A stretch of 64,000 bases of DNA from the human T2T-CHM13v2.0 reference genome, Homo sapiens. Position 1 is the first letter of the stretch, and every line of letters starts with the position of its first letter. Made by a program: the position numbers and the translations under genes. Under the pieces are notes generated by a model. The model was not told where the DNA came from. It saw nothing but the letters and a program-made list of their open reading frames with translations, and did no database searches. Of the stretch, positions 4,200 through 59,783 are shown one piece after another. The stretch covers positions 42,592,001 through 42,656,000 of the forward strand of contig CP068257.2 of NCBI GenBank assembly GCA_009914755.4, read 5' to 3'.

Positions 4200-5350
4200 G
4201 AAGGCGGAAGAGACGGGCTGGGGGGATAGGGGGGACGGCGGCGGGGAAGGGCAGGGAGGGCGGCGGCGAAGGCGCAGGAAGCCCTGAAGCCGGGCGGCTT
4301 CCCCCTCCCAGGCCACGCTGAGAGACGGGGGTTGGGGGGATTTAAAATCGCGCGCCTGGCAGGGGCGGGGCGGGGGCCACCTGCCCTCCGGCGGGAAGAG
4401 CTGGGCAGGGCCCGCGGAGTGCAGGGCGGAGGCACTGGCGGTCCGCACCCGGGTGAGGTGAGGCGCGTAACCGCATCTGAGCCGGACTCTTTAGGACGAG
4501 TCCCGTCCCTGGAGTCAGAAAACCCGGTCCAGCGCCAGCGTGGACGTGCGCTTCCCGGGACACGCCCAGGGACGCCGGCTAGGACCGGCGAGGCTGGAGG
4601 GGTGGCGATGTTGGGGGCTGAGGTTCCTCGCCCCGGGGCGGGCGGCTGCTGGTAAGGGACCGCATGGCCCCGCAGGTGAGGAGGGCGCAGGTGAGGAGGG
4701 CGCAGGTGAGCCGGGCGGGCTGCGGGCAGCGCCACCTCCTCCCGGAGGCCCTCCCTGATTGACCGGCCGGGAACCGCGCGCCTCTGGGCCTGCGGCTGAG
4801 GTCCGGGGCTGCGCCGCGCCGATGAGCTGACGCCGGGCCGAGCGCTCCACCCCCAGGGCCGGGCGCACCTGAATCCCCTCCACCCGCGGGACTGCGGAGA
4901 GGGGGACGGCCCCCGGATACCGCGTGGGGGCTTTGGGAGGATGGGGAATGGGTCCTGGGGGAGCAGAGCCTCCCAAATTAAGGCCTCCCAAGAGCGCGGC
5001 CGGTCATCCGCGGCGGCGAAGGGAAGGTGCCCTGTCGGTGCGTCCGGACCCCGCAGCCCCCCAGTGCCGCCCGGGGGCGGTGGGAGAGGGGCCGACACCG
5101 CAGGGCCCGCCGTGCTGTGGCCGAGGGGGCAGGTCCAGGCTCTGCTTCCCGGGCAGACGCGGGAGACCCCAGCAAGCCAAGTGCTGCGGGCAGCGCCCCC
5201 CCCCGCCGAGAGAGGGGACGCCGCGTGGAGGCCACAGCCAGGCAGGGGCAGGAAGGCAGCTGGGCCAGAAGGGGACACTGAGGCAGGCCGAGGCGGCCGC
5301 GGGGGAGGGTGCCAGGACCAGCCCAGGAACCTCGGAGACCACGGTAAGCG
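4200..5350. promoter_or_regulatory. Second CpG island 1.3-2.5 kb upstream of the ICOSLG ATG with no gene I can assign
   Basis: GC- and CpG-dense (ggcggcggggaagggcagggagggcggcggcgaaggcgcagg...). It contains a 16-bp x3 repeat (gcaggtgaggagggcg) at about 4665-4715. Confidence 0.4.
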
Positions 5351-6729: not shown

Positions 6730-7040
<311 letters not shown>

Positions 7041-19823: not shown

Positions 19824-20582
19824 TCACAGCTCAGGAGGCCAGAGGTTTTGAAGTGAAGGTGTGCCGGCAGGCGTGCCTCCCTCAGAAGGCGCCAGGCAAG
19901 GACGTGCCAGGCCTCTCCCCCAGCTCCTGGGGCTGCTGGCACCCATGGCTGGTGGACACCTCACTCCAGTCTCTGCCTCCATCATCATGTGACTGTCTTC
20001 TCCGTCTCCATTTCCCAAATCTCTTACAGTGACACTAGTCGCTGCATTGAGGGCCCACCCTAAATCTGGAATGATCTCATCTCGTGATCCTTAACTAAAT
20101 TACATCTGCAAAAACCCTGTTTCCAAATAAGATCACATTCACAGGTAAGGGATGGAGACTTGGATGTCCCTCTCAGAGGGACAAAATTCCACCTTCTCTG
20201 CCTTTGTCTGAGGTTCCTGCCGGCCCCCCTGGCTCCTCGGCTGGACTCCCAAAACGGCCCACACCTGGCCAGCAGAAGCCCAGGCACTTGCTCCTGAGGA
20301 CTGGACTTTGAGACGTGCCAGCCACCCTCTCCCGGCCCCTCTCCCATCTGCTACCAGGGCCTCGTTCCTAGGCTTGGAAGCAACAAAACTGCCAAAGCAG
20401 TTTACCCAAAGCCACCATCGAGTGGAAGCCACTATCGGAGAGGAACCCAGGAAAGAGTGTTTGCTCCCGAGGCTGCAGCCGTGGTGCCCGTCGGCGCGCC
20501 TGCATTCTGCAGCGGGAACCGAGGGAAGGCCGTAAGTCAGGGCCTGCTGCTGCCGGGTGCTGCCCCTCCACGGGCTCCTTAC

Positions 20583-42790: not shown

Positions 42791-43076
42791 TTAGGCCCCT
42801 TTTATACAGGCAGTAATCCGTTCCTGAGGGCAGAGTCCTTTCGACCTAATGACCTCCCAAAGGTCCCACCACCTACTACTATCACCTTGGGAGTGAAGCT
42901 ATAACATAAGAATGCTGGGGGGAGAACAACATTCAGCTAATAGCTGGTGGGCTGCGGAGGGGGCAGAGGGCAGAGCTCTGTTCTCCCAGGGCCTGTCCAC
43001 CGAGAGGGCCCCGGCCCACCAGCTGGGCCTTTTGGTAAGATCGCAAGGCAGATGGTCAATTCTGCAAAAAAGAAGC

Positions 43077-43389
<313 letters not shown>

Positions 43390-44594
43390 CTAGTTCACTG
43401 AGAAAAGTGACGCCGTCTGGACACATACCCACAGTGGGACGCAGTGGAGAGGCCAGACCAGGGAAACTGAGGCCCAACCAGTGGGGCAGGTTTGAGGCAA
43501 GAGTAGTAGGAGGGGAGGGGGCAGGGGGTCCCCCCTCCAATGCCCTTGGCTGAGCACGGGTTCTTCTGAGCTCACCGGTGCTCGGAGCTGCCTCCCTGAC
43601 TTGGACAACCATGTGGAATGGCCATCCCGCCCTCAACAAGTAGAGGCAACTTCCTCTCTACAGTGAGGAAATTGAGGCCCAGTGAGGAAGCCTGTGGCCA
43701 GGAGGGTGCTAGGGGTCCTCACAAAGTGTCCTGAGGGGACCCACCCCTCCCTTGATGCCAGACCACCTGGCCAGGCTGCAGGAGCAGGGCCCAGGGCCTC
43801 CAGGAGCCAAGGCCTGGCCAGGGCTCCATGTTCCCCGAGGCCTTTCTGACTCAGGCTCCTGGCCTCTGGGAGCCTGGCCCTTCCAGGGAGCCACAGGGGA
43901 TGGAACCTCCATCTGGAGCAGGGGAGAAGGCACGGAGTCCAGGCTTGTTTGAGGGGCCAAGGCTGAGCCCCCTCCAGCCCCTTCCCTGCTCTGCCATTAG
44001 GACCTGGCTCCTCCCAACTTCTATACACATCACATGGGCCGCGTCCCCCCACTTTGCAGGCTGAGAACATCTGACGTGACCTGGGCACCTGAGGGGCACC
44101 AGGCACAGCAGGAGCATGGACCTGGAGAACCTCTGTTCTTCCGTGCATCAAGGTCCGAGTCGTGGTTCTGCCCCTTAGCAGCTGCGTGACTCTGGCCAAG
44201 CTCCTCCCGGCAACAGGCCTCAGTTTCCATATCTGTGGATGGCACTAATCACGATGATGACCTGAGGAGACCGTTCTGCTGATGGAGTGAGCAGAATCAC
44301 AAAGCTCTCAGGGCCTAGCCCGGGGCATGGCAGGTCCGCAGGCGTCCAAGGGCACAGCACAGATGTGGGAGAAAGGGCTGCGGGGCCCTCCCGCTCCAGC
44401 CGAGGACACGGGGCTCAGGGATGGAGCCCAATACTGTCCCAGAGCTCTGCTGCCCAGGTGCCTCTTGGGGAAACTGAGGCTCAGTCCCACAAAGGCATCA
44501 GTCCCACTGAAGACAGGGCCGAATCCCCAGCCCCTCACCCCCCTCCAGGGGTCTGTGCCACCTCCAGGGAGCCGTGGCGGCTCCATGTCACCTG

Positions 44595-44655
44595 CGGGCA
44601 AGGGGCTGGTGTGGAAAGCCCCACGGCATGGTGGAAAGTCCGAAATTCTACAGGG
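44595..44655. promoter_or_regulatory. AIRE: AIRE upstream enhancer (CNS1) core: two tandem NF-kB motifs, GGAAAGCCCC (~44613-44622) and GGAAAGTCC(G) (~44633-44642), spaced 20 bp
   Basis: Read directly: gtgtGGAAAGCCCCacggcatggtGGAAAGTCCgaaatt. Their reverse complements are GGGGCTTTCC and CGGACTTTCC. Position is about 3.4 kb upstream of the AIRE ATG. Confidence 0.7.
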
Positions 44656-47600
44656 GCCTCTTTGTTAAACCTCCATGCAAGAGGCTGGGTGACGCCTGCC
44701 CACAGGGGTCAGGCCCCAGCCCAATGACACAGGTGACCCGCAAAGACTGCAGGTCTTTTTTAAAAAGTGAAGTGCAGACTTGGATCTCGCTTTGCAGTTT
44801 TTAATTCCCCTTTAACCATCTCTGGGCTAAGGCATCCATTGACTCACTTAACCATCTGGGGAGGGAAAAGCCACCGGGTTGCAGGGGGTGACTTTGGGGC
44901 AGGATGGCCTCTGAAGGGGTGGGTTGCCCCTCCACACCTGTGGGTGTTTCTCGTTAGGTAGAACGAGAGACTTGGAAAAGAAAGAGACACAGACAAAGTA
45001 TAGAGAAAGAAATTGGGGGACCAGGGGACCGGCGCTCAGCATACGGAGGACCCCCGCTGGCCTCTGAGTTCCCTTAGTATTTATTGATCATTTTTGGGTG
45101 TTTCTCGGAGAGGGGGATGTGGCAGGATCATAGGATAATAGTGGAGAGAAGGTCAGCAGGTAAGCACGTGAACAAAGGTCTCTGCATCATAAACAAGGTA
45201 AAGAATTAAGTGCTGTGCTTTAGATATGTATACACATAAACATCTCAATGCCTTAAGGAGCAGTATTGCTGCCTGCTTGTCCCACCTCCAGCCCTAAGGC
45301 AGTTTCCCCCTATCTCAGTAGATGGAATATACAATCGGGTTTTATACCGAGACATTCCATTGCCCAGGGACGAGCAGGAGACAGATGCCTTCCTCTTGTC
45401 TCAACTGCAACGAGGCGTTCCTTCCACTTTTACTAATCCTCCTCAGCACAGACCCTTTACGGTGTCGGGCTGGGGGACGGTCAGGTCTTTCCCTTCCCAG
45501 GAGGCCATATCTCAGACTATCACATGGGGAGAAACCTTGGACAATACCTGGCTTTCCTAGGCAGGGGTCCCTGCGGCCTTCCGCAGTGTTTTGTGTCCCT
45601 GGGTACTTAAGATTAGGGAGTGGTGATGACTCTTAACGAGCATGCTGCCTTCAAGCATTTGTTTAATAAAGCACACCCTGCACAGCCCTTAATCCATTTA
45701 ACCCTGAGTTGACACAGCACATGTCTCAGGGAGCACAGGGTTGGGGGTAGGGTTACAGATTAAAATGGAGTCTCTTATGTCTACTTTCTATGCAGACACA
45801 TTAACAATCTGATCTCTCTTTCTTTTCCCCACCGCCTCAAAGGAGAGGAAAGCCAAGTTGCTGGGAGCAACGGTTACTGGTCATCCCAAAGCTGTGTGCG
45901 CTGGTTCCCTGGCACCCCAGGGGCTTTTATGCATGAACTGTGCAGCCAGTGGGCCCAAGGGTTGCCATTGAACTTGATGTTAGTGAGCTCTCCCTTCGTG
46001 AGACCCCTGCCCATGGATGAGCAAGGAGAATGGGGGTGTTTCAGGAGCAGACAGGGATCCTGTGCAAAGCTGGGCTTCTGTGCAACTTTCGCTTGCAGTT
46101 ATTTAAATATTTTTGCTGTAAATACAGAACTGCAGGGGAGAGGGCAGGAAACCCAGCGAGCAGCAGCCCGGCCTGGCTGGGGACAGGATGTGTCTGTTGG
46201 AGCGGGGACCGGCAAGGCAGGCATGCAGGCAGGGGGCTTCCCTCTCGGGGTCTTCGGAAGGCGCAGTGCAGGGAGTGAGAGACGCCCAGGCCTGGGCAGC
46301 GAGAGGGCCCTGCTCCCCGCTCAAGGCTCCCAGGACATTCCACACAGGAGCCAGCCTGTTCCAACCCTGCACTGCCTGATACTCCACAGCCACCACTGAG
46401 ATGGACCCCCTCCCCCTCAGCTCCCCATGACGTCCCCAGCACCTGACCCCAGGCTGACCACCTCGGCCACCACCTCTGGCCCCACCTTCCTCCCCAGGTT
46501 TGTTCCCAAACACCCCTAGAGTCTTTTCCGGAGCAATCTCAGACGTGCAGAACGCTCAGGGGGACCCTGGGCCTGAAGGCGGTAGGAGAAACCGAGACCG
46601 ACCCCTGGTCTAGAGGAGAGGTGTCTGCCGCTCTCCATCCTGGACTCTGGCTGCCCAAAAGCAAACGGCACGCCTGCCCACGTGGGAATCTTGGTGGCGT
46701 CTCTCACTGCATCAGTTAGCCCCCAGCCCAGTGCTGCCTGGATTCAGGCTTCCTGGTACCTTCGTCCACCCTTCAGCCCTAATCCATGCTGGCCAGGTCA
46801 TCTCGTTCTCTGGCTCGGTGGGAACACTCGTGCCCAGAGACCTCTCGTGGTTCTCTGCAGCCTGCACACAGGGCCTGCTTCCCTGGCTTGACCGCACAGA
46901 CAAGGGGACTGTTACCAAGGCCTCCCACTGAGGCCACCCCCCCTCCAGGCCATGCCTGCGGGGCCACCACAGCCTCAGCATCATTGCAGGCCCCAGGCCT
47001 CTGCACCTGGTCTTGTTTTACTGGGGGCACTGTCCCCACTCACGTCCACCTGGGACCCTCGGCTCCTGTCCACTGCAGCTCCCCTCCCGGACACCTTCCC
47101 AGATGCCCCCGGAAGCTCCTGTCCAGGCCACAGCATCCCTCAGCCTCTGTCACTGGTCCTAGGAAGACCCTTTGGGAGCTCTCACTCAGGGCCACACTCA
47201 GGACCCCCGTTGTGGGGCTGGCCGCCTTCCTTCTAAAGCACCTGGAGGAAGGAAGGAGGGGGTCAATGCGAGCCTCAATCCCCAGGCGAGTGTGCCCCTT
47301 TTAAAGATGAGGGAACCGAGGCTCAGAGAAGGAAAGGACTTGCCTGGCGTCACACAGCTAGCCTAAGATGGTGAGGTCAGGAGCTCCCTGGCAACACCCA
47401 GGCTGCCGTACCGTCTCCTGCATCAGACTGAGCCTCCATCGGGCTCCTCCCACAGCCCCAGGCGGGCCCCTGAGTAGGGGCTCTCAGCTTGTGTGGAGGT
47501 CCCCCAGGAACACCACCCCGATCCAGCCTCCATGGAGGCTCTTGCCGGCCACTGGGAGGGGCCGGTGCACCCTGGGCAGCCCCTGCCAGGGCCCTGAGAC

Positions 47601-48062: not shown

Positions 48063-48194
48063 ATGGCGACGGACGCGGCGCTACGCCGGCTTCTGAGGCT
48101 GCACCGCACGGAGATCGCGGTGGCCGTGGACAGCGCCTTCCCACTGCTGCACGCGCTGGCTGACCACGACGTGGTCCCCGAGGACAAGTTTCAG
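48063..48194 (+). CDS. AIRE: AIRE exon 1 coding ([52 protein letters not shown]-terminus, LXXLL motif)
   Basis: ATG at 48063 in a ccccATGG context. Donor is CAG|gtgggc. Confidence 0.93.
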
Positions 48195-48357
48195 GTGGGC
48201 TCCCCGCCCGCCCCCCGCTGCCCCCAGGCCCTGTGAGCCAGGGATAGTCCCCGGGGAAGTTCCAGGAGGACCCCGCCCCTCCAGATCCCCAAGCCCCTCC
48301 AGCCTTCCCCAACTCCCTCCCCACAAGGAGCCAGGGGCGTCCCTGATGACAAGTTAG

Positions 48358-48876
<519 letters not shown>

Positions 48877-49026
48877 TGAGGAGCCCGTGGGTGATGTTCC
48901 AGGACCGTCTTGGATCCTAAGAGGCAAAGGGGCCAGGCCTCACCTGTCTGGCCAAGGTGTCCAGTTCTGGGGCCCACCCTACCCCTGGAGAAAACCCTGA
49001 GGTTGGGACCCTGCTCCTGCCCCTGA

Positions 49027-49332
<306 letters not shown>

Positions 49333-49535
49333 TAGACCCACACACTGGACCAGCCTCTCAGCTCCCTCCTGCCTGAAGGCTGAGCTCCCCGGAGCTGGTG
49401 AAGTAGGCGGGCGGGTCTCATTTCCCTTTTACTGATGAGAAACCAGAGCCCGGCAAAGGGACTACCCAGCACTGGACCGCCCCCTCCACGCCCTCCCACC
49501 GCGGGCCCCTGCCCACCGGCACTCACCCCCACTGA

Positions 49536-49727
<192 letters not shown>

Positions 49728-50400
49728 TGAGACCCTGTCCTAGGGGCTGGGGACGTGCTGGCCTGGTGTGTCATTCCAAGGGCCTAAGCTGCACCACCAG
49801 ACCCAGGAAGGGGACACCTTGGGTCTAAGCATGATCTTGCCAGTCGCCCCTGCCCCCACTGCACCCTGGTTCTGGGACCCCCTTCTCAGGCACCTTCTCT
49901 GCCCGTCCACTCCCTATCCTTCAGGACCAGCCTAGACATAGCTTCCTCCAGAAAATCATCCCTGGCCCCCAGCTGCATGCAGGCTGAACCCTTCCTGTCC
50001 CCTTCTCCTTCCTTCCCAGGGCACTGGACTCCAGAGACCCCCTATCTCCCTGAGGGCAGAGCCTAGGAACTCTGTGTCCCTCCCGGCACAATACAGGGCC
50101 CATGTCATGGGGGGGTGGGTCTGGTCATTGGTCATGCCTTCCTATCCATTGTGCCAGCTCTGCTGACACTGCCACCCCCCAGCACACGCACACTTGGGTG
50201 CACACACGAACACACACATTCTCATGTCTCTGCACTTACCTGTGGGCTGTCTGCACATGGCAGGGCTGGGTCCCCTCCTTGGCCTGCCCTGGCTGGAAGG
50301 AAAGGGCTCTGCAGCCCAGTGCTGCCTGCTTCTGGCATAGAGTATGTGCTTGGGAACAGTCTTCCCCACGGGTGACCCCAATGGGTGTTCCCTTTCCCAG

Positions 50401-50514
50401 GGATTCAGACCATGTCAGCTTCAGTCCAGAGAGCTGTGGCCATGTCCTCCGGGGACGTCCCGGGAGCCCGAGGGGCCGTGGAGGGGATCCTCATCCAGCA
50501 GGTGTTTGAGTCAG
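50401..50514 (+). CDS. AIRE: AIRE exon 5 ([38 protein letters not shown]; start of SAND domain)
   Basis: ORF 50385..50633(+). Acceptor is tcccag|GG and donor is G|gtagac. Confidence 0.92.
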
Positions 50515-51684
50515 GTAGACGCTGTGGCGGGGAGATGGGGCTGATGGGGAGACCCAGGCTCCAAGATGGAAGGAGGACCACGCCCCTTTGCATCCTGGTG
50601 GTCCCACAGCAGACCGGACTGTTGCTCAGGTAGCCAGAGTTTCTGCCTGTGGTTCTGCTGACTTTGGAGGAGGAGGGTGAGCACTGAAGTCTCCCTGTCG
50701 GGGGACCTTCTGCAAGGCCAGCGGTCCAGGCCCACATCCCCACCCGGGATGTACAGCACTCCCCAGTCACCTCCATCCATGTGCATGGGCCCTCCTGGGC
50801 CATGGGGTTGCATCCTTAGAAAGTTCTGCCTGTGCTGCTGAGACCCTCCAGGGTATCGGCATTCTTCAACCAGGACAGCCTGTAGCATAGCGTCCTTGCC
50901 CCCCATACCCTGGCCAGCCTGCAGCATCCTCGCCCGCCATTCCCTGGCCAGCCGCTGACCCCATGCAATCACCAGTGCCATCTGACCAGGGCACAGCAGG
51001 GCCGCTGGTGGCAGACCCACCGTGCCATCGGGGCATTCCATCTCAAGTCCCTGACACGGTGTCTCCTCGGTGCTGGACATGGGCTGGGAACACCAAGCAC
51101 AGCCAGGGCCCTGGTCTTGCACCTCTGGATGGTCCCAAGGCCCACTGTGTTACTTCCTAAGGCTGTTGGTTAAATTGGCACAAACTGGGAGGCTTGAAAT
51201 GACAGAAATGCCAACATCGAGGTGTCTCGGGGCCACACTCCCTCTGGAGGCTCCAGGGAAGAATCCTTCCTTGTGTCTCCCAGCTGCTGGTCATTATGGG
51301 GGTACCCCTGTGCTCCTTGTTCCTGGGCTCAGGACCCACCGCTCCAGCCTCTGCTTCTGTGGTCTCACAGCTGTCTCCCACGTGTCCTCTTTATAAGGAC
51401 ACCAGTCATTGAACTTATGGTCCAGTGTGACCTCATCTTAACTAATCACATCTACAAAGACCCTGATTTCAAGTAAGGTCACACTCTGAGGTTCTGGGTG
51501 GACGTGAACTTCGGGGGACGCTGTTGAACACCCTGGTGTAGATCCAGGACAATCCCCGGGCCCCAGACTCGACTGGGGTGGGGGCGGGCTGGAGGAATGC
51601 AGGCTGTGGGAACTCCACCTGTCTCTGCTAGACCCCACCCTGGGGCCTACACGACTGCCAAGGCAGGTCCTGCTGGGCGGGTGA

Positions 51685-51867
<183 letters not shown>

Positions 51868-52025
51868 TGACCTTCCCTGGGGAGCCTGGCTCTTGATGCC
51901 CCCCGCCCCAGGAACAGCGTTGCCTCTGGGGGAGTGGCTCTGCTGGGGGCTGGGGGCTGCTGCCGAGAGACGCCTGGTGCCACAGCCATGTGCACCCTCG
52001 CTGCTGAGGCTGCCCCCATTGCTGA

Positions 52026-52133
<108 letters not shown>

Positions 52134-52490
52134 TAGACCACAGGAGAGGCCCCTGTCTGCCCTTGCTCCCCTCGGGTGGGTCCTGCTGCCTCTGCCTTTA
52201 CCTGGGCACTCAGGGATGAGCACCGGGGCCTGAGCCCCTACCCACAGGGTACAGCTCTTTTTCTTTAATAGACAGTATTTTTTTCCTGATAATACGCAAT
52301 GGTAATAGTTTAAATGAGTCAGAGAAAGTGAGGTCTTCTCAGGCTCTTAAGAGCATGGCGTTTGGTCCAGGCTGTACCCGCTGCTCTCAGCTGGGCCCGT
52401 GGGTGGGCCGGGCGCCCCTGCTATAGCCAGGAGGTCAAGGATCCACTGGGAATGCCATGCTCATCTTTCGTCCCCAGCATGGTTTCTTAA

Positions 52491-53267
<777 letters not shown>

Positions 53268-54357
53268 TGAGCCTGCACCTCTGCCAGCGCAACCAGGCCA
53301 CCCCGGTTCACGGCCGCCTCCACCCACTGACCCTGAAGGGAAGCCACCCCAAGCCTCTCCCATCCAAGATGGAAAGGGGTTCTGAGTCAGGTCACTGGGC
53401 CGTGGGGCCGGGGCCTGGGGTTTTCCCACCCTGCCACCTGCCTCCCGGTCTGGCCACACCTGCTGCCCAGCCTGGACAGCTGGGCCCCTGAGGGCAGCAA
53501 AGCAGAACAGAGGCCCAGGGCGAAGATGCCACCCTGTCCAAGCTCATCCCAGGCTGCAGCCCACGCCCCCATGGGTAGCCGGCCCCCACCCCCAAGCCCC
53601 ACCCCAGAGTCCCACTCCAGACAGGGCTGGGGAGCACAGAGGCCACAGAGCTGTGCCCCCCAGGGCAGGTGGGAGTTTGTCCACCAATGCACAGGACGCC
53701 GGGCTTAGTGGGGGCGGGAGGCCTCCTCTGCGTTCACATCCCGGTGCTCCTTCCCCACGGCCCACCGAGCCCTGCCCCCATTCCAACCCCACAGGACGTG
53801 GCAGTCTGTGGGAGGAAGAGCTCTGGGTGCAGTGGGGACCCACGTTCAGGCGAGGCTCTGCCCCAGCCCCTGAGTGGCCGTCATCAGGCCCCCTCTCAGC
53901 CTTGTGCCTCATCACTAGAATAAGGGGCACAGTGGGGGTCATTGCTCGGCTCCTGAAGCCGTTCCTCCTTGCCGTCTCTTTCTGCCCTTGATCACCTCCC
54001 CATTCTGCTGGGTGCCATTCCCCTTAACAGGTGGGTCAGTTTAGGGAGGCCCCCGGCAGGGCCCAGCCCTGAGAGGCAGGCAAAGCCACCAGGGCTCGCA
54101 GGTGTTGGGGATTCCTGGGGTTCATCAGAGAGCACGCCAAGGGGACCCTGATCACGCTGGCCAGGGCCACCCCACGAAGGGTAAATGTCCCCCTGCTGGG
54201 CTCTCCCTTCCTGTGTCTCTGCCCATCTCTCTGCTGTGCCTCGGTTCCCCCTCTGTGAAAAGACATGGTCGGAGCCCTGGAGCTCCACCCGTGGGTTTGG
54301 GGATCTGTCACCCGCTGTCTTGTTCTGCATGTCTCTGACTGGTGGACACACGAGCAG

Positions 54358-54457
54358 TGGGACCTGGAGGTGCTCCAGCTGCCTGCAGGCAACAGTCCAG
54401 GAGGTGCAGCCCCGGGCAGAGGAGCCCCGGCCCCAGGAGCCACCCGTGGAGACCCCG
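54358..54457 (+). CDS. AIRE: AIRE exon 9 (T + [33 protein letters not shown])
   Basis: ORF 54185..54988(+). Acceptor is gagcag|T and donor is CCG|gtatgg. Confidence 0.92.
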
Positions 54458-54545
54458 GTATGGCCACGCCCCCTCCTAGCCGGGCCACCCCTCCTGTCCA
54501 CATGGCCACGCCCCCTCCTAGGCTGGGCCACCCCCTCCTGTCCGT
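54458..54545. repeat. ~37-bp tandem duplication beginning in the AIRE exon 9 donor (gtatggccacgccccctcctagccgggccacccctcctgtccaca / tggccacgccccctcctaggctgggccaccccctcctgtccg)
   Basis: Two direct copies read in sequence. The first copy contains the GT donor. Confidence 0.8.
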
Positions 54546-54988
54546 CTGTCCCCTGGAGTCCTGTGGGACAGGACTGCCCCAGCCATAGCACTATGTCCCC
54601 CATGCCCAAGCCCGGTCCTTGTGGTCTCCTGCAGTGGAGTCCCCATCATGGTTCCTGTGGGCCTAAACCCAGCTCTCCTGGCTGCGGGTCCACCCCGGGG
54701 GGCACTATGAGCATTGATAACGGCCCCGGAAGATGTGTTCCTTGTTCTGCTGCTGTGAGGGTAGTAGGTCTACTGTGCACAGACCCAGTGTTCCCTCTGA
54801 CAGCCCTGAGGGCCAGGGGGCCCCCCGTGTGTAGACGGGGGAGGAGGGAGGACCACAGAGCCAGGAAGTGCCACAGCCTTTCCCACTCAGTGTGGACGCC
54901 TTCCACCATGCCAGCCCTCCGCCCCCACCATGCCAGGCCTCTGCCCCCACCCTGCTGCCCTGGGTTTCAGGGTCCCAGCAGTCACTGA

Positions 54989-55291
<303 letters not shown>

Positions 55292-55712
55292 TGAATTCAC
55301 CTGAAACAGGAGGAGAGGGAGGCCAGGCGAGAAAGGCTCCGGGAGGCACAGGGCCTGGGGCTGTGGGGGGAGCGTGGGGGGCTGCGGGGGGAAGGGGACG
55401 CTCCTAGACCTCCACTCCAGCTCCTGGCCCTGGGCATTACTGCTCCCCCCACAAGGCAGGACAATGAAGGGGGGGATGTCCCAGCACACGTGGGAGCCCT
55501 CCCCTCCCTGCCTCAATTCCCTTCCCTGCACCCCTGTGGGCACCGCCTTTCAGGAGACTCCCGCACTCAGCCCCAAAGGAGGCCAGGCCCGCCAAGCAGG
55601 AGAGAGGTGCGGGCGCCAGGCTTGCAGGCAGCAGCCTGAGGGTGCTTGGGTCGCCCCTGCCTCCTGGGGATGGGACTGGTCCCGCTGTCCTGCAGCCTGC
55701 GTGGCACCGTGA

Positions 55713-55967
<255 letters not shown>

Positions 55968-55974
55968 TGAGTGA

Positions 55975-56748
<774 letters not shown>

Positions 56749-58414
56749 TAAATATAGTTAAAAAGGAAGCTCCCCCCGAGGGTTGGTGGCTGACGTCACG
56801 GTTGGCTGTGTGGCCGCCTCACAGCATGAGCCTGAGAGTCCTGCCAGGGCTCCCTGGTGGGGTGAAGGGAGAGCGGGAGCGCCCGGCCTGCAGGAGCAAA
56901 CCCCCACCCTGTCTGACCCCTCCAGGTTGTCTCACCCCCAGCCCTCCCTGGGGCCAGGATCCACCCCACTGTGTGGCCAGAGCCCTCTCAGAGAGGCAAA
57001 GTGACCCCGGGTCCAGCCAGTAGCTCTTCCTGTCCTCCTGCTCCGGGGTCAGAGAGGACCTGGGTGGCGCGGAGACCCCTGACTGCTGGGGCGGCTGGGC
57101 TTGCCCTGGAGCTGGGTGTGGGGGAGGCCCGAGTCGCTGCTGCAGGAGCCTCCGGGGGGGTGGCCTCTTGCCCTGACCGTCCCCAGCAGAGGCCTCCTGA
57201 GCACATCCTGGCCACCGAGGAGCCTTTAGGGATCCTGGGGTGATGACACGTCCCACCTGCTCCACTGGCCCATGCTCTTTCCCAGCTGTGCCTCCGCCCC
57301 GTATACACCGTGTGGGTGACAGGCCACCCCGGCGTGGTACTCCCCAGGAGGGTGACAGCCTACCCCAGCGTGGTACTCCCCGGGCAGGTGACAGGCTTCC
57401 CCGGCATGCAGGCTCTGGCCTGGCATGGCACAAGCCTCAGACCCAGCCCTGCCCTTGGGGCTTTTGTGGAACAGTGGCGTGGCCCACAGCTGTCACTGTC
57501 CCCTTCCTTCTAGAAGCCTCCCTCCTCACACCACCCATCTGGAGTCAGGAGCCCAGCCGGGCATATACGCAGATGCCCCTCCCTAACCCCAGGCAGCTTT
57601 CCTGCAACTGCTCCCGCAGCGGGTACCTCGTCATTAACCTCCTGGGTTCTGTCTCTGAACAGCAGAGACCTCTTTCTTGTCATCGTGATGTGAAATGTAA
57701 CGCCATGTCAGAGGAAAAGTTCTGGCTGGCCTTGGCCTCCCCCCTCAGCCTGCCCCCTTCCTCCAGGGTGGTTGGACGTGGCCCCAGACCCCATCCTGAG
57801 CAGCTCTCCCACCCCCTGGGAGCATCCTTAGGACCGGGGAGCATCCAGGGGCTTTCCCCTCCAGACCGGGCAGCCCCTCCCTCAGCCATGCAGGGCTGCC
57901 GGGCCTCGCAGCGCCAGTGTTCACCCGAGTGGAGGAGCTGGGATGTGGCTGTTTGGGGCCACAAATGGGGAATTCCACAGGGTTCAATGTAATATGGTCT
58001 CCTCTCTGCTGGGGGTGCCTGCCTGGGGACCTTCTCCCACTCTGGTCGCTCACCTATAGTGTGGGCTGGCCCTGGTGGTGCTTGTCGGGGGCGGGGGTGG
58101 CATGGACCAGGCACTTTCCTCTCTGGGCCTCAGACTTCCCCTCTCAGAGTGGGACTCCTTGCTGGTTCCCTGAGCTCCCTCGTTTTCCCCAGGAGGCCAC
58201 ACAGTGTGGAGGCTGTCTGGGGGCCGTGGGCAGCTGGCCGTGGGCAGGACCCTGGGGAGGCAGCCCCAGCCCCATCATGCCCACGCAGCCCTGTGCCCCC
58301 ACCCCCAGTGGAGCTGGGTGTAAGAATTCCCATCTCAGTGTGGGGGAAACACCCCCGCGGCCCCTAGGCCCTGCGGCCTCTGTACCCCCACCAGGGCTGT
58401 GGGAGTTGGGCTGA

Positions 58415-58663
<249 letters not shown>

Positions 58664-59416
58664 TGAGCACCTGGCACCCCCCACAGGAGCCCCCCTAGCC
58701 CCCTTGCAGGAGCCCCCCCCGGCCCCTCCCCCTGCGGGAGCCCAGTGCTGCTGAGCGCCCCCAGCCCCTCCCCAACAAGAGCCCCCACACGGCCCCTCCC
58801 CTGAGGGCCTGCACCCTGGCAGGCAGAGGCTCGAGCACCAGGCTCAAGATCCACTTTCCCAGGGAGGGTGGGGCGTGGGAGTGGGGGGGGGGTCCCAGAC
58901 CCCGTCCCTCTAAGATTTGCTTGCCCCTCCCAACTCAGGCCTCTCTACGCTAAGATGGGCAGGTAGAATCTGTGGGGAAAATGTGACTTTTAAGGGCTCT
59001 GTCTGTTTTTGCCAAGAGGATAAGCTCCTTCAGCCTCCACGGGTTCTCCTCAGTGTCTGATGTGGCACCCGGGGGTCCCAGCTGACCATGGGGCAGGGGT
59101 TCTGCCCTGTGCAGTGGCCGTGCCCCACACACCCTGACCGTGCAGGTGTCTGCAGAGCCCCAGGGCCTGAGAGTGGGCCAGGGGGCCCAGCGCTGGGTAA
59201 TGGAGCTGCCCCTCTGGATGGGGTCCCCGGGTATAGCTGGAGAAATGAGCGACGGGCTCACAGCCTCTCCCGGGTGGCGGTCTTATTCTGCTGGCATCGT
59301 GGGGCCCGTGGCCCCATCCTGTGGGAGCATCAGGCTCCTGAGCAGAATAAGTAGCTGGCCCCGACCCCCCCACCCTGAAGGAGCCACCCGAGGAGGCAGA
59401 ACTGCCATGAACTGCC

Positions 59417-59608
59417 ATGGGGATGTGCCCTGGGCTTATAGGATGTGGTGAAGTACACAGGACAGGGTCCTCGGTCTGGCCTGTGCCATGGGGACCTTGG
59501 GCCTCAGTTTCCCCACCTTTGATGGAATACGGTGAAGTGCACAGGACAGGGTCCTCCCCAGACTGGCCTGTGCCATGGGGCCTCGGGCCTCAGTTTCCCC
59601 ACCTTTGA
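59417..59608. repeat. ~95-bp tandem duplication in AIRE intron 13, ~100 bp upstream of the last-exon acceptor
   Basis: Two copies of the form ggtgaagt(a/g)cacaggacagggtcctc…ctggcctgtgccatgggg…ctcagtttccccacctttga. Confidence 0.8.
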
Positions 59609-59711
59609 CTTAGAGGGAAGGTTGGATGGTGACTTCTTGTAACGATGGCCATGATTCTGTGGCTGCGGCGGGGGCGCACCTGGAGGTTCTCACCGTCACT
59701 CTGTCCCGCAG

Positions 59712-59783
59712 CACACCTTCGATGGCATCCTGCAGTGGGCCATCCAGAGCATGGCCCGTCCGGCGGCCCCCTTCCCCTCCTGA
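59712..59783 (+). CDS. AIRE: AIRE exon 14 coding part incl. stop ([23 protein letters not shown])
   Basis: Acceptor is tcccgcag|CAC. TGA at 59781-59783. Confidence 0.92.

What the first reader, a model, noticed from the sequence alone, without database searches (positions are those of the whole stretch)
44595..44655. Tandem NF-kB motifs 3.4 kb upstream of AIRE (the known AIRE CNS1 enhancer core)
Two kB-type decamers in the same orientation, GGAAAGCCCC (reverse complement GGGGCTTTCC, a perfect GGGRNWYYCC match) and GGAAAGTCCG (reverse complement CGGACTTTCC, 9 of 10 of the classic Ig-kappa site), sit 20 bp apart (two helical turns). They lie in a non-repetitive stretch about 3.4 kb upstream of the AIRE ATG. 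A conserved noncoding element about 3 kb upstream of AIRE with paired NF-kB sites has been described as necessary for AIRE expression in medullary thymic epithelial cells, via RANK and non-canonical NF-kB signalling. The motifs seen here fit that element in position and content.
Basis: partly seen in the sequence, partly recalled or inferred. Interest (0 to 1): 0.6.

Follow-up and report, generated by a model that had tools for sequence, protein, structure and literature searches.

The report
Human AIRE CNS1 NF-kB enhancer core
The two NF-kB motifs are real and are the human copy of CNS1, a published enhancer that mice need in order to switch on the immune-tolerance gene AIRE, so this is a correct rediscovery and not a new finding.

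Summary
GGAAAGCCCC (44613-44622) and GGAAAGTCCG (44633-44642) lie 20 bp apart, 3450 bp upstream of an ATG that opens a 14-exon gene. That gene encodes human AIRE, as I recall its sequence, at 545 of 545 residues.

The motif pair alone is not beyond chance: 2 loosely defined pairs were found against about 5 expected. Two other results carry the case.
- **Match to the published element.** The mouse ACNS1 gel-shift probe (LaFlam 2015, PMC4647269) has its best match in the whole window exactly here.
- **Conservation.** Across ten other placental AIRE loci, this is the only stretch in the 12 kb upstream of AIRE that at least 5 of 8 non-primate species align to.

Site 1 keeps a perfect GGGRNWYYCC match in 10 of 11 placentals and changes only at degenerate positions. 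The site 2 core, GGAAAG(T/C)CC, is invariant in 13 of 13 species.

Three refinements:
- Spacing ranges from 18 to 21 bp, or 16 bp in Pteropus counting its degenerate site 1. "Two helical turns" is therefore not a conserved constraint.
- About 30 nt 3' of site 2 is equally conserved and unexplained.
- Site 2 plus that flank is detectable upstream of AIRE in a wombat and a turtle, beyond the placental range stated by LaFlam.

NF-kB binding and enhancer activity of the human sequence were not testable here.

The parts
44613..44622 (-). kB site 1. The + strand reads GGAAAGCCCC; the - strand reads GGGGCTTTCC, a 10/10 match to GGGRNWYYCC.
   Evidence: The match is 10/10 in 10 of 11 placentals, with substitutions only at degenerate consensus positions (GGGGCTTTCC, GGGGTTTTCC, GGGGGTTTCC, GGGGCTTCCC, GGGAGTTTCC). 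It corresponds to the GGGGGTTTCC site mutated in the LaFlam mut2 probe.
44623..44632 (.). Spacer between the two kB sites (ACGGCATGGT). Its length varies between species.
   Evidence: Start-to-start spacing is 18 bp (Bos, Panthera, Equus), 19 bp (Mus, Loxodonta, Dasypus), 20 bp (human, Macaca, Otolemur, Lepus) and 21 bp (wombat). Identity to human across the other placentals is 0.63, the lowest within the core.
44633..44642 (-). kB site 2. The + strand reads GGAAAGTCCG; the - strand reads CGGACTTTCC, a 9/10 match.
   Evidence: GGAAAG(T/C)CC is invariant in 13 of 13 species, including wombat and turtle. The consensus 5' G is absent in every species. It corresponds to the TGGACTTTCC site mutated in the LaFlam mut1 probe.
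44643..44672 (.). Conserved 3' flank of site 2 (AAATTCTACAGGGGCCTCTTTGTTAAACCT). No factor has been assigned.
   Evidence: Identity to human across 10 other placentals is 0.74, against 0.76 for site 1 and 0.49 for the 5' flank. Parts of it are recognisable in wombat and turtle.
44589..44702 (.). CNS1 core conserved block, the human ortholog of mouse ACNS1.
   Evidence: At least 4 of 8 non-primate species align over 44589-44702. Over 44594-44699 at least 5 of 8 align, and that is the only such stretch in the 12 kb upstream of the ATG. All 8 align at 44630-44664.
44750..44787 (.). Second, weaker conserved block. It holds an IRF-like AAAAAGTGAAGTG at 44762-44774.
   Evidence: At least 4 of 8 non-primate species align. 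LaFlam mention three PhastCons elements at ACNS1. The motif label is my own reading and was not tested.
48063..48194 (+). Coding part of AIRE exon 1 ([11 protein letters not shown]...), the gene this enhancer controls.
   Evidence: The 14 exon blocks from 48063 to 59780 encode all 545 of 545 residues of human AIRE as I recalled it.

Best explanation
This is the core of the human ortholog of AIRE CNS1 (ACNS1), a distal enhancer about 3.4 kb upstream of AIRE. Its two kB sites are bound by Rel/NF-kB dimers, which accumulate in the nucleus after RANK or CD40 signalling in medullary thymic epithelial cells. Each site adds to transcriptional activation of the AIRE promoter.

**Shown here:** the motifs, their position, their orthology to the mouse element, and purifying selection that follows the kB consensus.

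**Shown in the literature, for mouse:**
- p52 binding by gel shift.
- RelB+p52-dependent reporter activity, with roughly additive contributions from the two sites.
- Loss of Aire expression and autoimmunity after a 269-bp deletion.

**Inferred:** that the human sequence behaves in the same way.

**Also inferred:** the equally conserved 30 nt next to site 2 probably binds a further factor, which might help give the cell-type specificity that NF-kB alone cannot supply.
For: - **Motifs and distance:**
- **Match to the mouse probe:** the mouse EMSA probe GTCACGGAAACCCCCACGTGTGATGGAAAGTCCAAAATT has its best match in the window at 44613-44647.
- **One pair per locus:** the paired pattern occurs exactly once in each of 8 orthologous loci of about 30 kb, always upstream of AIRE. 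Lepus has a variant form.
- **Conservation peak:** this is the only upstream stretch aligned by at least 5 of 8 non-primate species.
- **Selection follows the consensus:** site 1 varies only where the kB consensus is degenerate, and site 2 is invariant.
- **Literature:** p52 EMSA, RelB+p52 reporter, additive site mutations, deletion phenotype and H3K27ac in mTECs (PMC4647269). Aire+ lymph-node cells are absent in CNS1-/- mice (PMC6504225). CNS1 is accessible in Aire-expressing cells (bioRxiv 2021.11.05.467513). AIRE ChIP signal is present at CNS1 (PMC8421262).
Against: - No binding, accessibility or reporter data for the human sequence could be examined here.
- Motif statistics alone do not exceed chance.
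- Site 2 is not a full consensus match in any species.
- Pteropus lacks a recognisable site 1 (7/10), so both sites may not be indispensable in every lineage.
- Spacing is not fixed, which argues against a strict phasing mechanism.
- NF-kB is active in many cells that do not express AIRE, so these sites cannot explain specificity. LaFlam make this point themselves.
Confidence: 0.9

Rival explanations
1. The element is the CNS1 enhancer, but its main drivers are canonical dimers (RelA or c-Rel with p50), not the non-canonical RelB:p52 route named by the first reader. Alternatively, both routes converge on it.
For: Reviews state that both non-canonical and canonical NF-kB signalling downstream of RANK are needed, and that binding is mediated by CNS1 (PMC11774315; PMC11537476). 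Site 1 is a generic full heterodimer site. Site 2 (NGGACTTTCC) lacks the 5' G of the five-base p50/p52-type half-site in all 13 species. From established structural knowledge of kB half-sites, that would suit Rel-subunit contacts. This last step is inference.
Against: The direct experiments I could read used p52 (EMSA) and RelB+p52 (reporter) and were positive. Nfkb2 and RelB are genetically required for Aire+ mTECs. Sequence alone cannot separate dimer preferences.
Confidence: 0.35
2. The conserved block works mainly through factors other than NF-kB, with the kB match secondary. Candidates are NFAT or another protein that reads GGAAA, or whatever binds the conserved 3' flank.
For: Both sites hold GGAAA, the NFAT core (my own knowledge). 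The 30 nt 3' of site 2 is as conserved as site 1. That flank, with site 2 but without an intact site 1, is what persists in wombat and turtle. LaFlam state that additional factors are needed and may bind at ACNS1.
Against: Substitutions in site 1 follow the kB consensus exactly across 10 placentals, which a GGAAA-only reader would not require. Mutating three bases in the GGG half of either site (GGG to CTC, or TGG to CTC) abolished competition in EMSA and lowered the RelB+p52 reporter.
Confidence: 0.08
3. The two motifs co-occur by chance in G+C-rich DNA and have no function.
For: Consensus matches and loose pairs are no more frequent than expected.
Against: The pair sits at the orthologous place in ten further placental loci. 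It is the peak of conservation in 12 kb of upstream sequence. It matches a functionally tested mouse element.
Confidence: 0.01

Closest known systems
Mouse Aire CNS1 / ACNS1 enhancer (LaFlam et al. 2015, J Exp Med, PMC4647269; Haljasorg et al. 2015, Eur J Immunol, not held in the library)
   Same: - The genomic setting matches. The element lies upstream of AIRE, on the side where the mouse locus carries a divergently oriented gene with a DNMT3-type ADD domain.
- It has two same-orientation kB sites. Site 2 shares 9 of 10 bases with mouse, and site 1 differs by one base at a degenerate position.
- The neighbouring AAATT flank is also conserved.
- In both species it is the sole strongly conserved non-coding block upstream of the gene.
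   Different: - Spacing is 20 bp in human and 19 bp in mouse.
- Distance to the ATG is 3450 bp in human and about 3180 bp in Mus caroli.
- The human distance is inflated by a lineage-specific insert of about 920 bp at 44912-45832 and an Alu-like insert at 43075-43373.
- All functional tests were done on the mouse sequence.
Classic Ig-kappa intronic enhancer kB site, GGGACTTTCC
   Same: Site 2 reads CGGACTTTCC on the minus strand, which matches 9 of 10 bases.
   Different: The first G, part of the five-base half-site contacted by p50/p52-type subunits, is missing in every one of the 13 species examined. Site 2 is therefore a conserved imperfect site and not a decayed perfect one.
Other enhancers with paired kB sites (for example the tandem kB sites of the HIV-1 LTR; recalled from memory, not tested)
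   Same: Two same-orientation kB decamers lie close together, and their contributions are additive.
   Different: The HIV-1 sites are almost adjacent. Here the centres are 18-21 bp apart with variable spacing, and the pair sits in a distal enhancer, not at a promoter.

Membership tests
AIRE CNS1 (ACNS1) enhancer | Lies a few kb upstream of the AIRE start codon, in the intergenic DNA 5' of AIRE. | tested here: met
   Site 1 is 3450 bp upstream of the ATG at 48063. In other species the distance is about 0.7 to 4.8 kb.
AIRE CNS1 (ACNS1) enhancer | Sequence orthology to the published mouse ACNS1 core (the EMSA probe). | tested here: met
   The best local alignment of the probe over both strands of the window is at 44613-44647. 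The Mus caroli locus L001 carries the probe sequence at 6823, and it aligns with the window in A1.
AIRE CNS1 (ACNS1) enhancer | Two kB sites conserved across placental mammals. | tested here: met
   Both sites are present in 10 of 11 placentals from seven orders. Site 2 is present in 11 of 11. Pteropus site 1 is degenerate.
AIRE CNS1 (ACNS1) enhancer | Stands out as the conserved non-coding sequence of the upstream interval. | tested here: met
   It is the only stretch of the 12 kb upstream of the ATG aligned by at least 5 of 8 non-primate species.
AIRE CNS1 (ACNS1) enhancer | Binds NF-kB subunits and activates a reporter in response to RelB+p52. | not testable with these tools
   Shown for the mouse sequence only (PMC4647269).
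AIRE CNS1 (ACNS1) enhancer | Required for AIRE expression in mTECs and in extrathymic Aire-expressing cells. | not testable with these tools
   Mouse deletions abolish Aire+ mTECs and Aire+ lymph-node cells. I found no human deletion or variant data in the held library.
AIRE CNS1 (ACNS1) enhancer | Active-enhancer chromatin (H3K27ac, accessibility) in AIRE-expressing cells. | not testable with these tools
   Reported for mouse. No human tracks were available here.
Consensus kB site GGGRNWYYCC | A 10 of 10 match to the consensus. | tested here: met
   This row is for site 1, GGGGCTTTCC on the minus strand at 44613-44622.
Consensus kB site GGGRNWYYCC | A 10 of 10 match to the consensus (site 2). 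| tested here: not met
   CGGACTTTCC is a 9/10 match. The first G is T, C or A in all 13 species. Mutating this site in the mouse probe still abolished competition for p52. It therefore works like a kB site without being a strict consensus match.

The most novel reading that the evidence does not exclude
The oldest part of CNS1 may not be the kB pair. It may be site 2 plus its 3' flank (GGAAAGTCCA-TAAATTC...CTCTT.GTTAA), and this part predates placental mammals.

**Evidence.**
- A profile built from placentals only has its top hit 4.8 kb upstream of AIRE in a wombat (E = 2e-4) and 2.4 kb upstream in a turtle (E = 1.8e-3). Both hits are on the AIRE strand.
- The wombat and turtle share an exact 18-mer there.
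- The reciprocal search finds only CNS1 positions.

**Implications, if true.** NF-kB control of AIRE through this site would go back to the amniote ancestor. The second site would have been added or perfected in the line to placentals. The conserved flank would mark the binding site of a still unnamed co-factor, possibly one of the 'additional factors' that LaFlam et al. call an open question.

**Caveats.** Only one marsupial and one reptile were sampled. I could not read Haljasorg 2015 to see whether conservation beyond placentals was already noted.
Probability: 0.5. Interest if true: 0.4.

Novelty: already known. Interest (0 to 1): 0.15.

Why it matters
AIRE drives the display of tissue antigens in the thymus, and its loss causes the autoimmune syndrome APS-1. 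CNS1 is the one distal element shown to be indispensable for Aire expression in mice. Pinning down its human coordinates and its base-level constraint helps in reading non-coding variants in patients who have an APS-1-like disease without AIRE coding mutations. The constraint is uneven: site 2 is invariant, site 1 is constrained to the consensus, and there is a conserved unexplained flank. For the genome scan itself, this is a correct recognition of a published element and adds little that is new. The modest additions are the variable spacing, the conserved flank and the hint of conservation beyond placentals.

Tried and rejected
- **Motif enrichment as evidence: rejected.** Single consensus matches (34 found, 36.9 expected) and loosely defined pairs (2 found, 5.05 expected) are at or below chance. 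The rare tight pattern was defined after the fact.
- **Strict helical phasing: rejected.** Spacing is 18-21 bp across species.
- **A protein-coding explanation: not pursued.** Mechanical ORFs cross the region, as expected in G+C-rich DNA. Conservation is confined to about 110 bp and contains indels of 1-3 bp.
- **Repeat origin, human.** 44400-44900 has no second copy in the window.
- **Repeat origin, turtle.** The turtle gene model is fused to a retroelement. Its long ORFs end about 1.5 kb before the CNS1-like hit, and no long direct repeats flank the hit. A transposon origin of the turtle match is therefore not indicated, though it is not fully excluded.
- **Naming the factor for the 3' flank and the second block.** SOX/TCF-like CTTTGTT, homeodomain-like TAAT and IRF-like AAGTGA readings were considered. 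None is conserved consistently enough, and no motif library was available. A review places Irf4, Irf8, Tbx21 and Tcf7 at the Aire start site, not at CNS1.
- **Haljasorg 2015.** The paper could not be read because it is not held.
- **Human CNS1 variants.** A review of human alternative NF-kB pathway defects contains no mention of CNS1.
- **Metagenome scan for further vertebrate orthologs: not run.** An 18-mer would give tens of chance hits, and host contigs there are too short to verify linkage to AIRE.

Full report
**What is in the sequence.** Window 44610-44648 reads tgtGGAAAGCCCCacggcatggtGGAAAGTCCGaaattc.
- Site 1 is 44613-44622. Its reverse complement, GGGGCTTTCC, matches GGGRNWYYCC at all ten positions.
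- Site 2 is 44633-44642. Its reverse complement, CGGACTTTCC, matches nine of ten, and also nine of ten of the Ig-kappa site GGGACTTTCC.
- The two sites have the same orientation, and their starts are 20 bp apart.

An ORF beginning [44 protein letters not shown] starts at 48063. Fourteen exon blocks between 48063 and 59780 encode every one of the 545 residues of human AIRE as I recalled it. The protein sequence came from my memory; the match is a tool result. Site 1 is therefore 3450 bp upstream of the AIRE ATG.

**Is it more than chance?** On motif counts alone it is not.
- The window holds 34 consensus kB matches, against 36.9 expected from shuffles.
- I counted pairs made of one strict site and one site with at most one mismatch, in the same orientation and 12-30 bp apart. 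The window has 2, and first-order Markov simulations give 5.05 on average.
- A tighter pattern that uses the shared GGAAA..CC of both sites is rare, with 1 found against 0.02 expected. I wrote that pattern after seeing the sites, so it carries little weight.

The case has to rest on other evidence.

**Match to the published element.** LaFlam et al. 2015 (PMC4647269) describe Aire CNS1 (ACNS1) as the sole mVista-identified conserved non-coding sequence overlapping PhastCons elements, about 3 kb upstream of mouse Aire, with two conserved kB sites. Their Methods print the gel-shift probe, 5'-GTCACGGAAACCCCCACGTGTGATGGAAAGTCCAAAATT-3'. I aligned this probe locally against both strands of the whole window. 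The best match falls at 44613-44647, which is the two motifs plus the AAATT that follows. The next best hit, on the other strand, is a 14-nt fragment.

**Orthologous loci.** A search with AIRE protein returned named orthologs. I fetched their genomic loci with 10 kb of upstream DNA:
- Mus caroli
- Loxodonta africana
- Bos mutus
- Dasypus novemcinctus
- Panthera leo
- Equus quagga
- Pteropus
- Lepus europaeus
- Macaca thibetana
- Otolemur garnettii

In the mouse locus, the gene upstream on the opposite strand carries a DNMT3-type ADD domain. In the Pteropus and Macaca loci the gene called downstream carries a phosphofructokinase (PFK) domain. This is the expected neighbourhood.

Results for the kB pair:
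- Human 44300-45000 finds one blastn hit upstream of AIRE in every locus, and each hit covers part or all of the kB pair.
- The paired pattern occurs exactly once in each of eight loci, always at that place.
- Lepus has the pair with site 1 as GGGAAGCCCC, which is still a perfect consensus match.
- Pteropus keeps site 2 (GGAAAGCCCG), but its site 1 position reads GGAACGGCCG, a 7 of 10 match.

**Conservation profile.** I compared the 12 kb upstream of the human ATG with the upstream DNA of all ten species. At least five of the eight non-primate species align only at 44594-44699, at least seven only at 44613-44667, and all eight only at 44630-44664. The kB pair is therefore the summit of the only strongly conserved non-coding block in the interval, as LaFlam reported for mouse. 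A second, weaker block lies at 44750-44787.

**Pattern of constraint.** Alignments A1 (11 placentals) and A2 (13 species), with the per-species table, show the following.
- **Site 1** is a 10/10 consensus match in ten of eleven placentals, although its sequence differs: GGGGCTTTCC, GGGGTTTTCC, GGGGGTTTCC, GGGGCTTCCC and GGGAGTTTCC. All changes fall at positions where the consensus is degenerate. That is the signature of selection for kB binding and not for some other reading of the sequence.
- **Site 2** is invariant at GGAAAG(T/C)CC in all thirteen species. Its first consensus position is never G (it is T, C or A). It is therefore a conserved imperfect site, not a decayed one.
- **The spacer** is the least conserved part, with 0.63 identity to human. 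Its length changes, so the start-to-start distance is 18 bp in cow, lion and zebra, 19 bp in mouse, elephant and armadillo, 20 bp in primates and hare, and 21 bp in wombat.
- **The 30 nt 3' of site 2** (44643-44672) has 0.74 identity to human. That is as high as site 1 (0.76) and well above the 5' flank (0.49). kB binding does not account for it.

**How it most likely works.** The mechanism comes from the literature on the mouse element.
- p52-containing nuclear extract shifts the probe. The shift is competed by wild-type probe but not by mutant probe.
- ACNS1 placed before a minimal promoter activates a reporter only when RelB and p52 are co-expressed. Each site contributes about equally and additively.
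- Deleting 269 bp removes all Aire+ mTECs, lowers Aire-dependent antigen transcripts and causes spontaneous autoimmunity. An adjacent deletion that spares the conserved core has no effect.
- Aire+ lymph-node cells are also lost in CNS1-/- mice.
- The region is accessible in Aire-expressing cells and carries AIRE ChIP signal.
- Reviews describe both canonical and non-canonical NF-kB signalling downstream of RANK as converging on CNS1.

I infer that the human sequence does the same, given base-level conservation of both sites. LaFlam stress that NF-kB cannot explain cell-type specificity, and that further factors may bind at ACNS1 or elsewhere. The conserved 3' flank is a candidate place for such a factor. 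That is my inference and is untested.

**Beyond placentals.** LaFlam state conservation 'across placental mammals'. I fetched the AIRE loci of a wombat (L011) and a turtle, Emydura macquarii (L012), after identifying their proteins.
- An nhmmer profile built only from the eleven placental sequences has its top hit in the wombat at 5236-5280 (E = 2e-4), 4.8 kb upstream of the ATG. Its top hit in the turtle is at 20005-20050 (E = 1.8e-3), 2.4 kb upstream. Both are on the AIRE strand, and the next best hit has E = 0.35.
- Both hits contain GGAAAGTCCA. The wombat and turtle share the exact 18-mer TGGAAAGTCCATAAATTC.
- In the reciprocal search, the turtle segment queried against 447 kb of all loci finds only CNS1 positions.
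- At the site 1 position the wombat has AAAAAACCCC (8 of 10). The turtle has nothing recognisable there, although a GGAAAGTTTC lies 33 bp upstream of site 2.
- The turtle gene model is fused to a retroelement. Its long ORFs end about 1.5 kb before the hit, and no long direct repeats flank it.

This suggests that site 2 and its flank are older than the pair. It rests on one marsupial and one reptile. I could not read Haljasorg et al. 2015 to see whether this was already noted. A library search found no paper linking CNS1 with marsupials or birds.

**Surroundings.**
- Human 44912-45832 has no counterpart in macaque. The label is therefore unverified.
- An Alu-like insert at 43075-43373 is also absent at that position in macaque.
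- The ~920-bp insert at 44912-45832, which lies between CNS1 and the ATG, accounts for almost all of the difference between the human distance from CNS1 to the ATG (3450 bp) and the macaque distance (2508 bp).
- The distance ranges from about 0.7 kb (hare, flying fox) to 4.8 kb (wombat).

**Verdict.** These are the two kB sites of the human ortholog of the published AIRE CNS1 enhancer, so the element is already known.

Refinements:
- Motif statistics alone would not have justified the call.
- The 20-bp phasing is not conserved.
- Site 2 is the invariant element.
- A conserved flank remains unexplained.
- A site 2 core may extend to marsupials and reptiles.

Binding, accessibility and necessity of the human sequence could not be tested with these tools.

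Noticed in passing
window 44912-45832 (minus strand): An insert of about 920 bp is absent from the orthologous macaque locus. This looks like a solo LTR only about 270 bp on the AIRE side of the kB pair, between the enhancer and the promoter. The label rests on memory because no repeat library was available.
   Followed up: partly
window 43075-43373: An Alu-like insertion is absent at this position in macaque. It matches three other places in the macaque locus L009 at 89-91% identity.
   Followed up: partly
window 44750-44787: A second conserved block lies about 130 bp 3' of site 2, with consensus AAAAAGTGAAGTGnAGACTTTGATCTT. It contains an IRF-like AAGTGA repeat at 44762-44774. The TCF/LEF-like CTTTGAT found in horse and elephant reads CTTGGAT in human and macaque. 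The motif labels are my own reading and were not tested.
   Followed up: partly
window 44643-44672: The 30 nt 3' of kB site 2 is as conserved as site 1 across placentals and is partly recognisable in wombat and turtle. No factor has been assigned.
   Followed up: partly
L007 9240-9275 (Pteropus) and L008 9285-9325 (Lepus): In the flying fox, site 1 is degenerate (GGAACGGCCG, 7/10) and only site 2 is kept. In both the flying fox and the hare, CNS1 lies only about 0.75 kb from the AIRE ATG, against 1.9-3.5 kb in the other placentals. Each rests on a single assembly and was not checked further.
   Followed up: no
L011 9045-9054 (Vombatus): A lone GGAAAGCCCC, identical to human site 1, lies about 1 kb upstream of the wombat AIRE ATG, away from the CNS1-like core at 5232-5280. 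It may be chance.
   Followed up: no
L012 10001-22400 (Emydura): The annotated turtle AIRE gene model (780 aa) is fused to reverse-transcriptase and RNase H domains from a retroelement lying upstream of the true AIRE exon 1, which starts at about 22405. This is probably an annotation artefact.
   Followed up: partly
one search hit list: The best database representative for the human AIRE query was the Pongo pygmaeus protein, at 96% identity. No 100% human entry was listed, presumably because the human sequence is folded into that 90% identity cluster.
   Followed up: no
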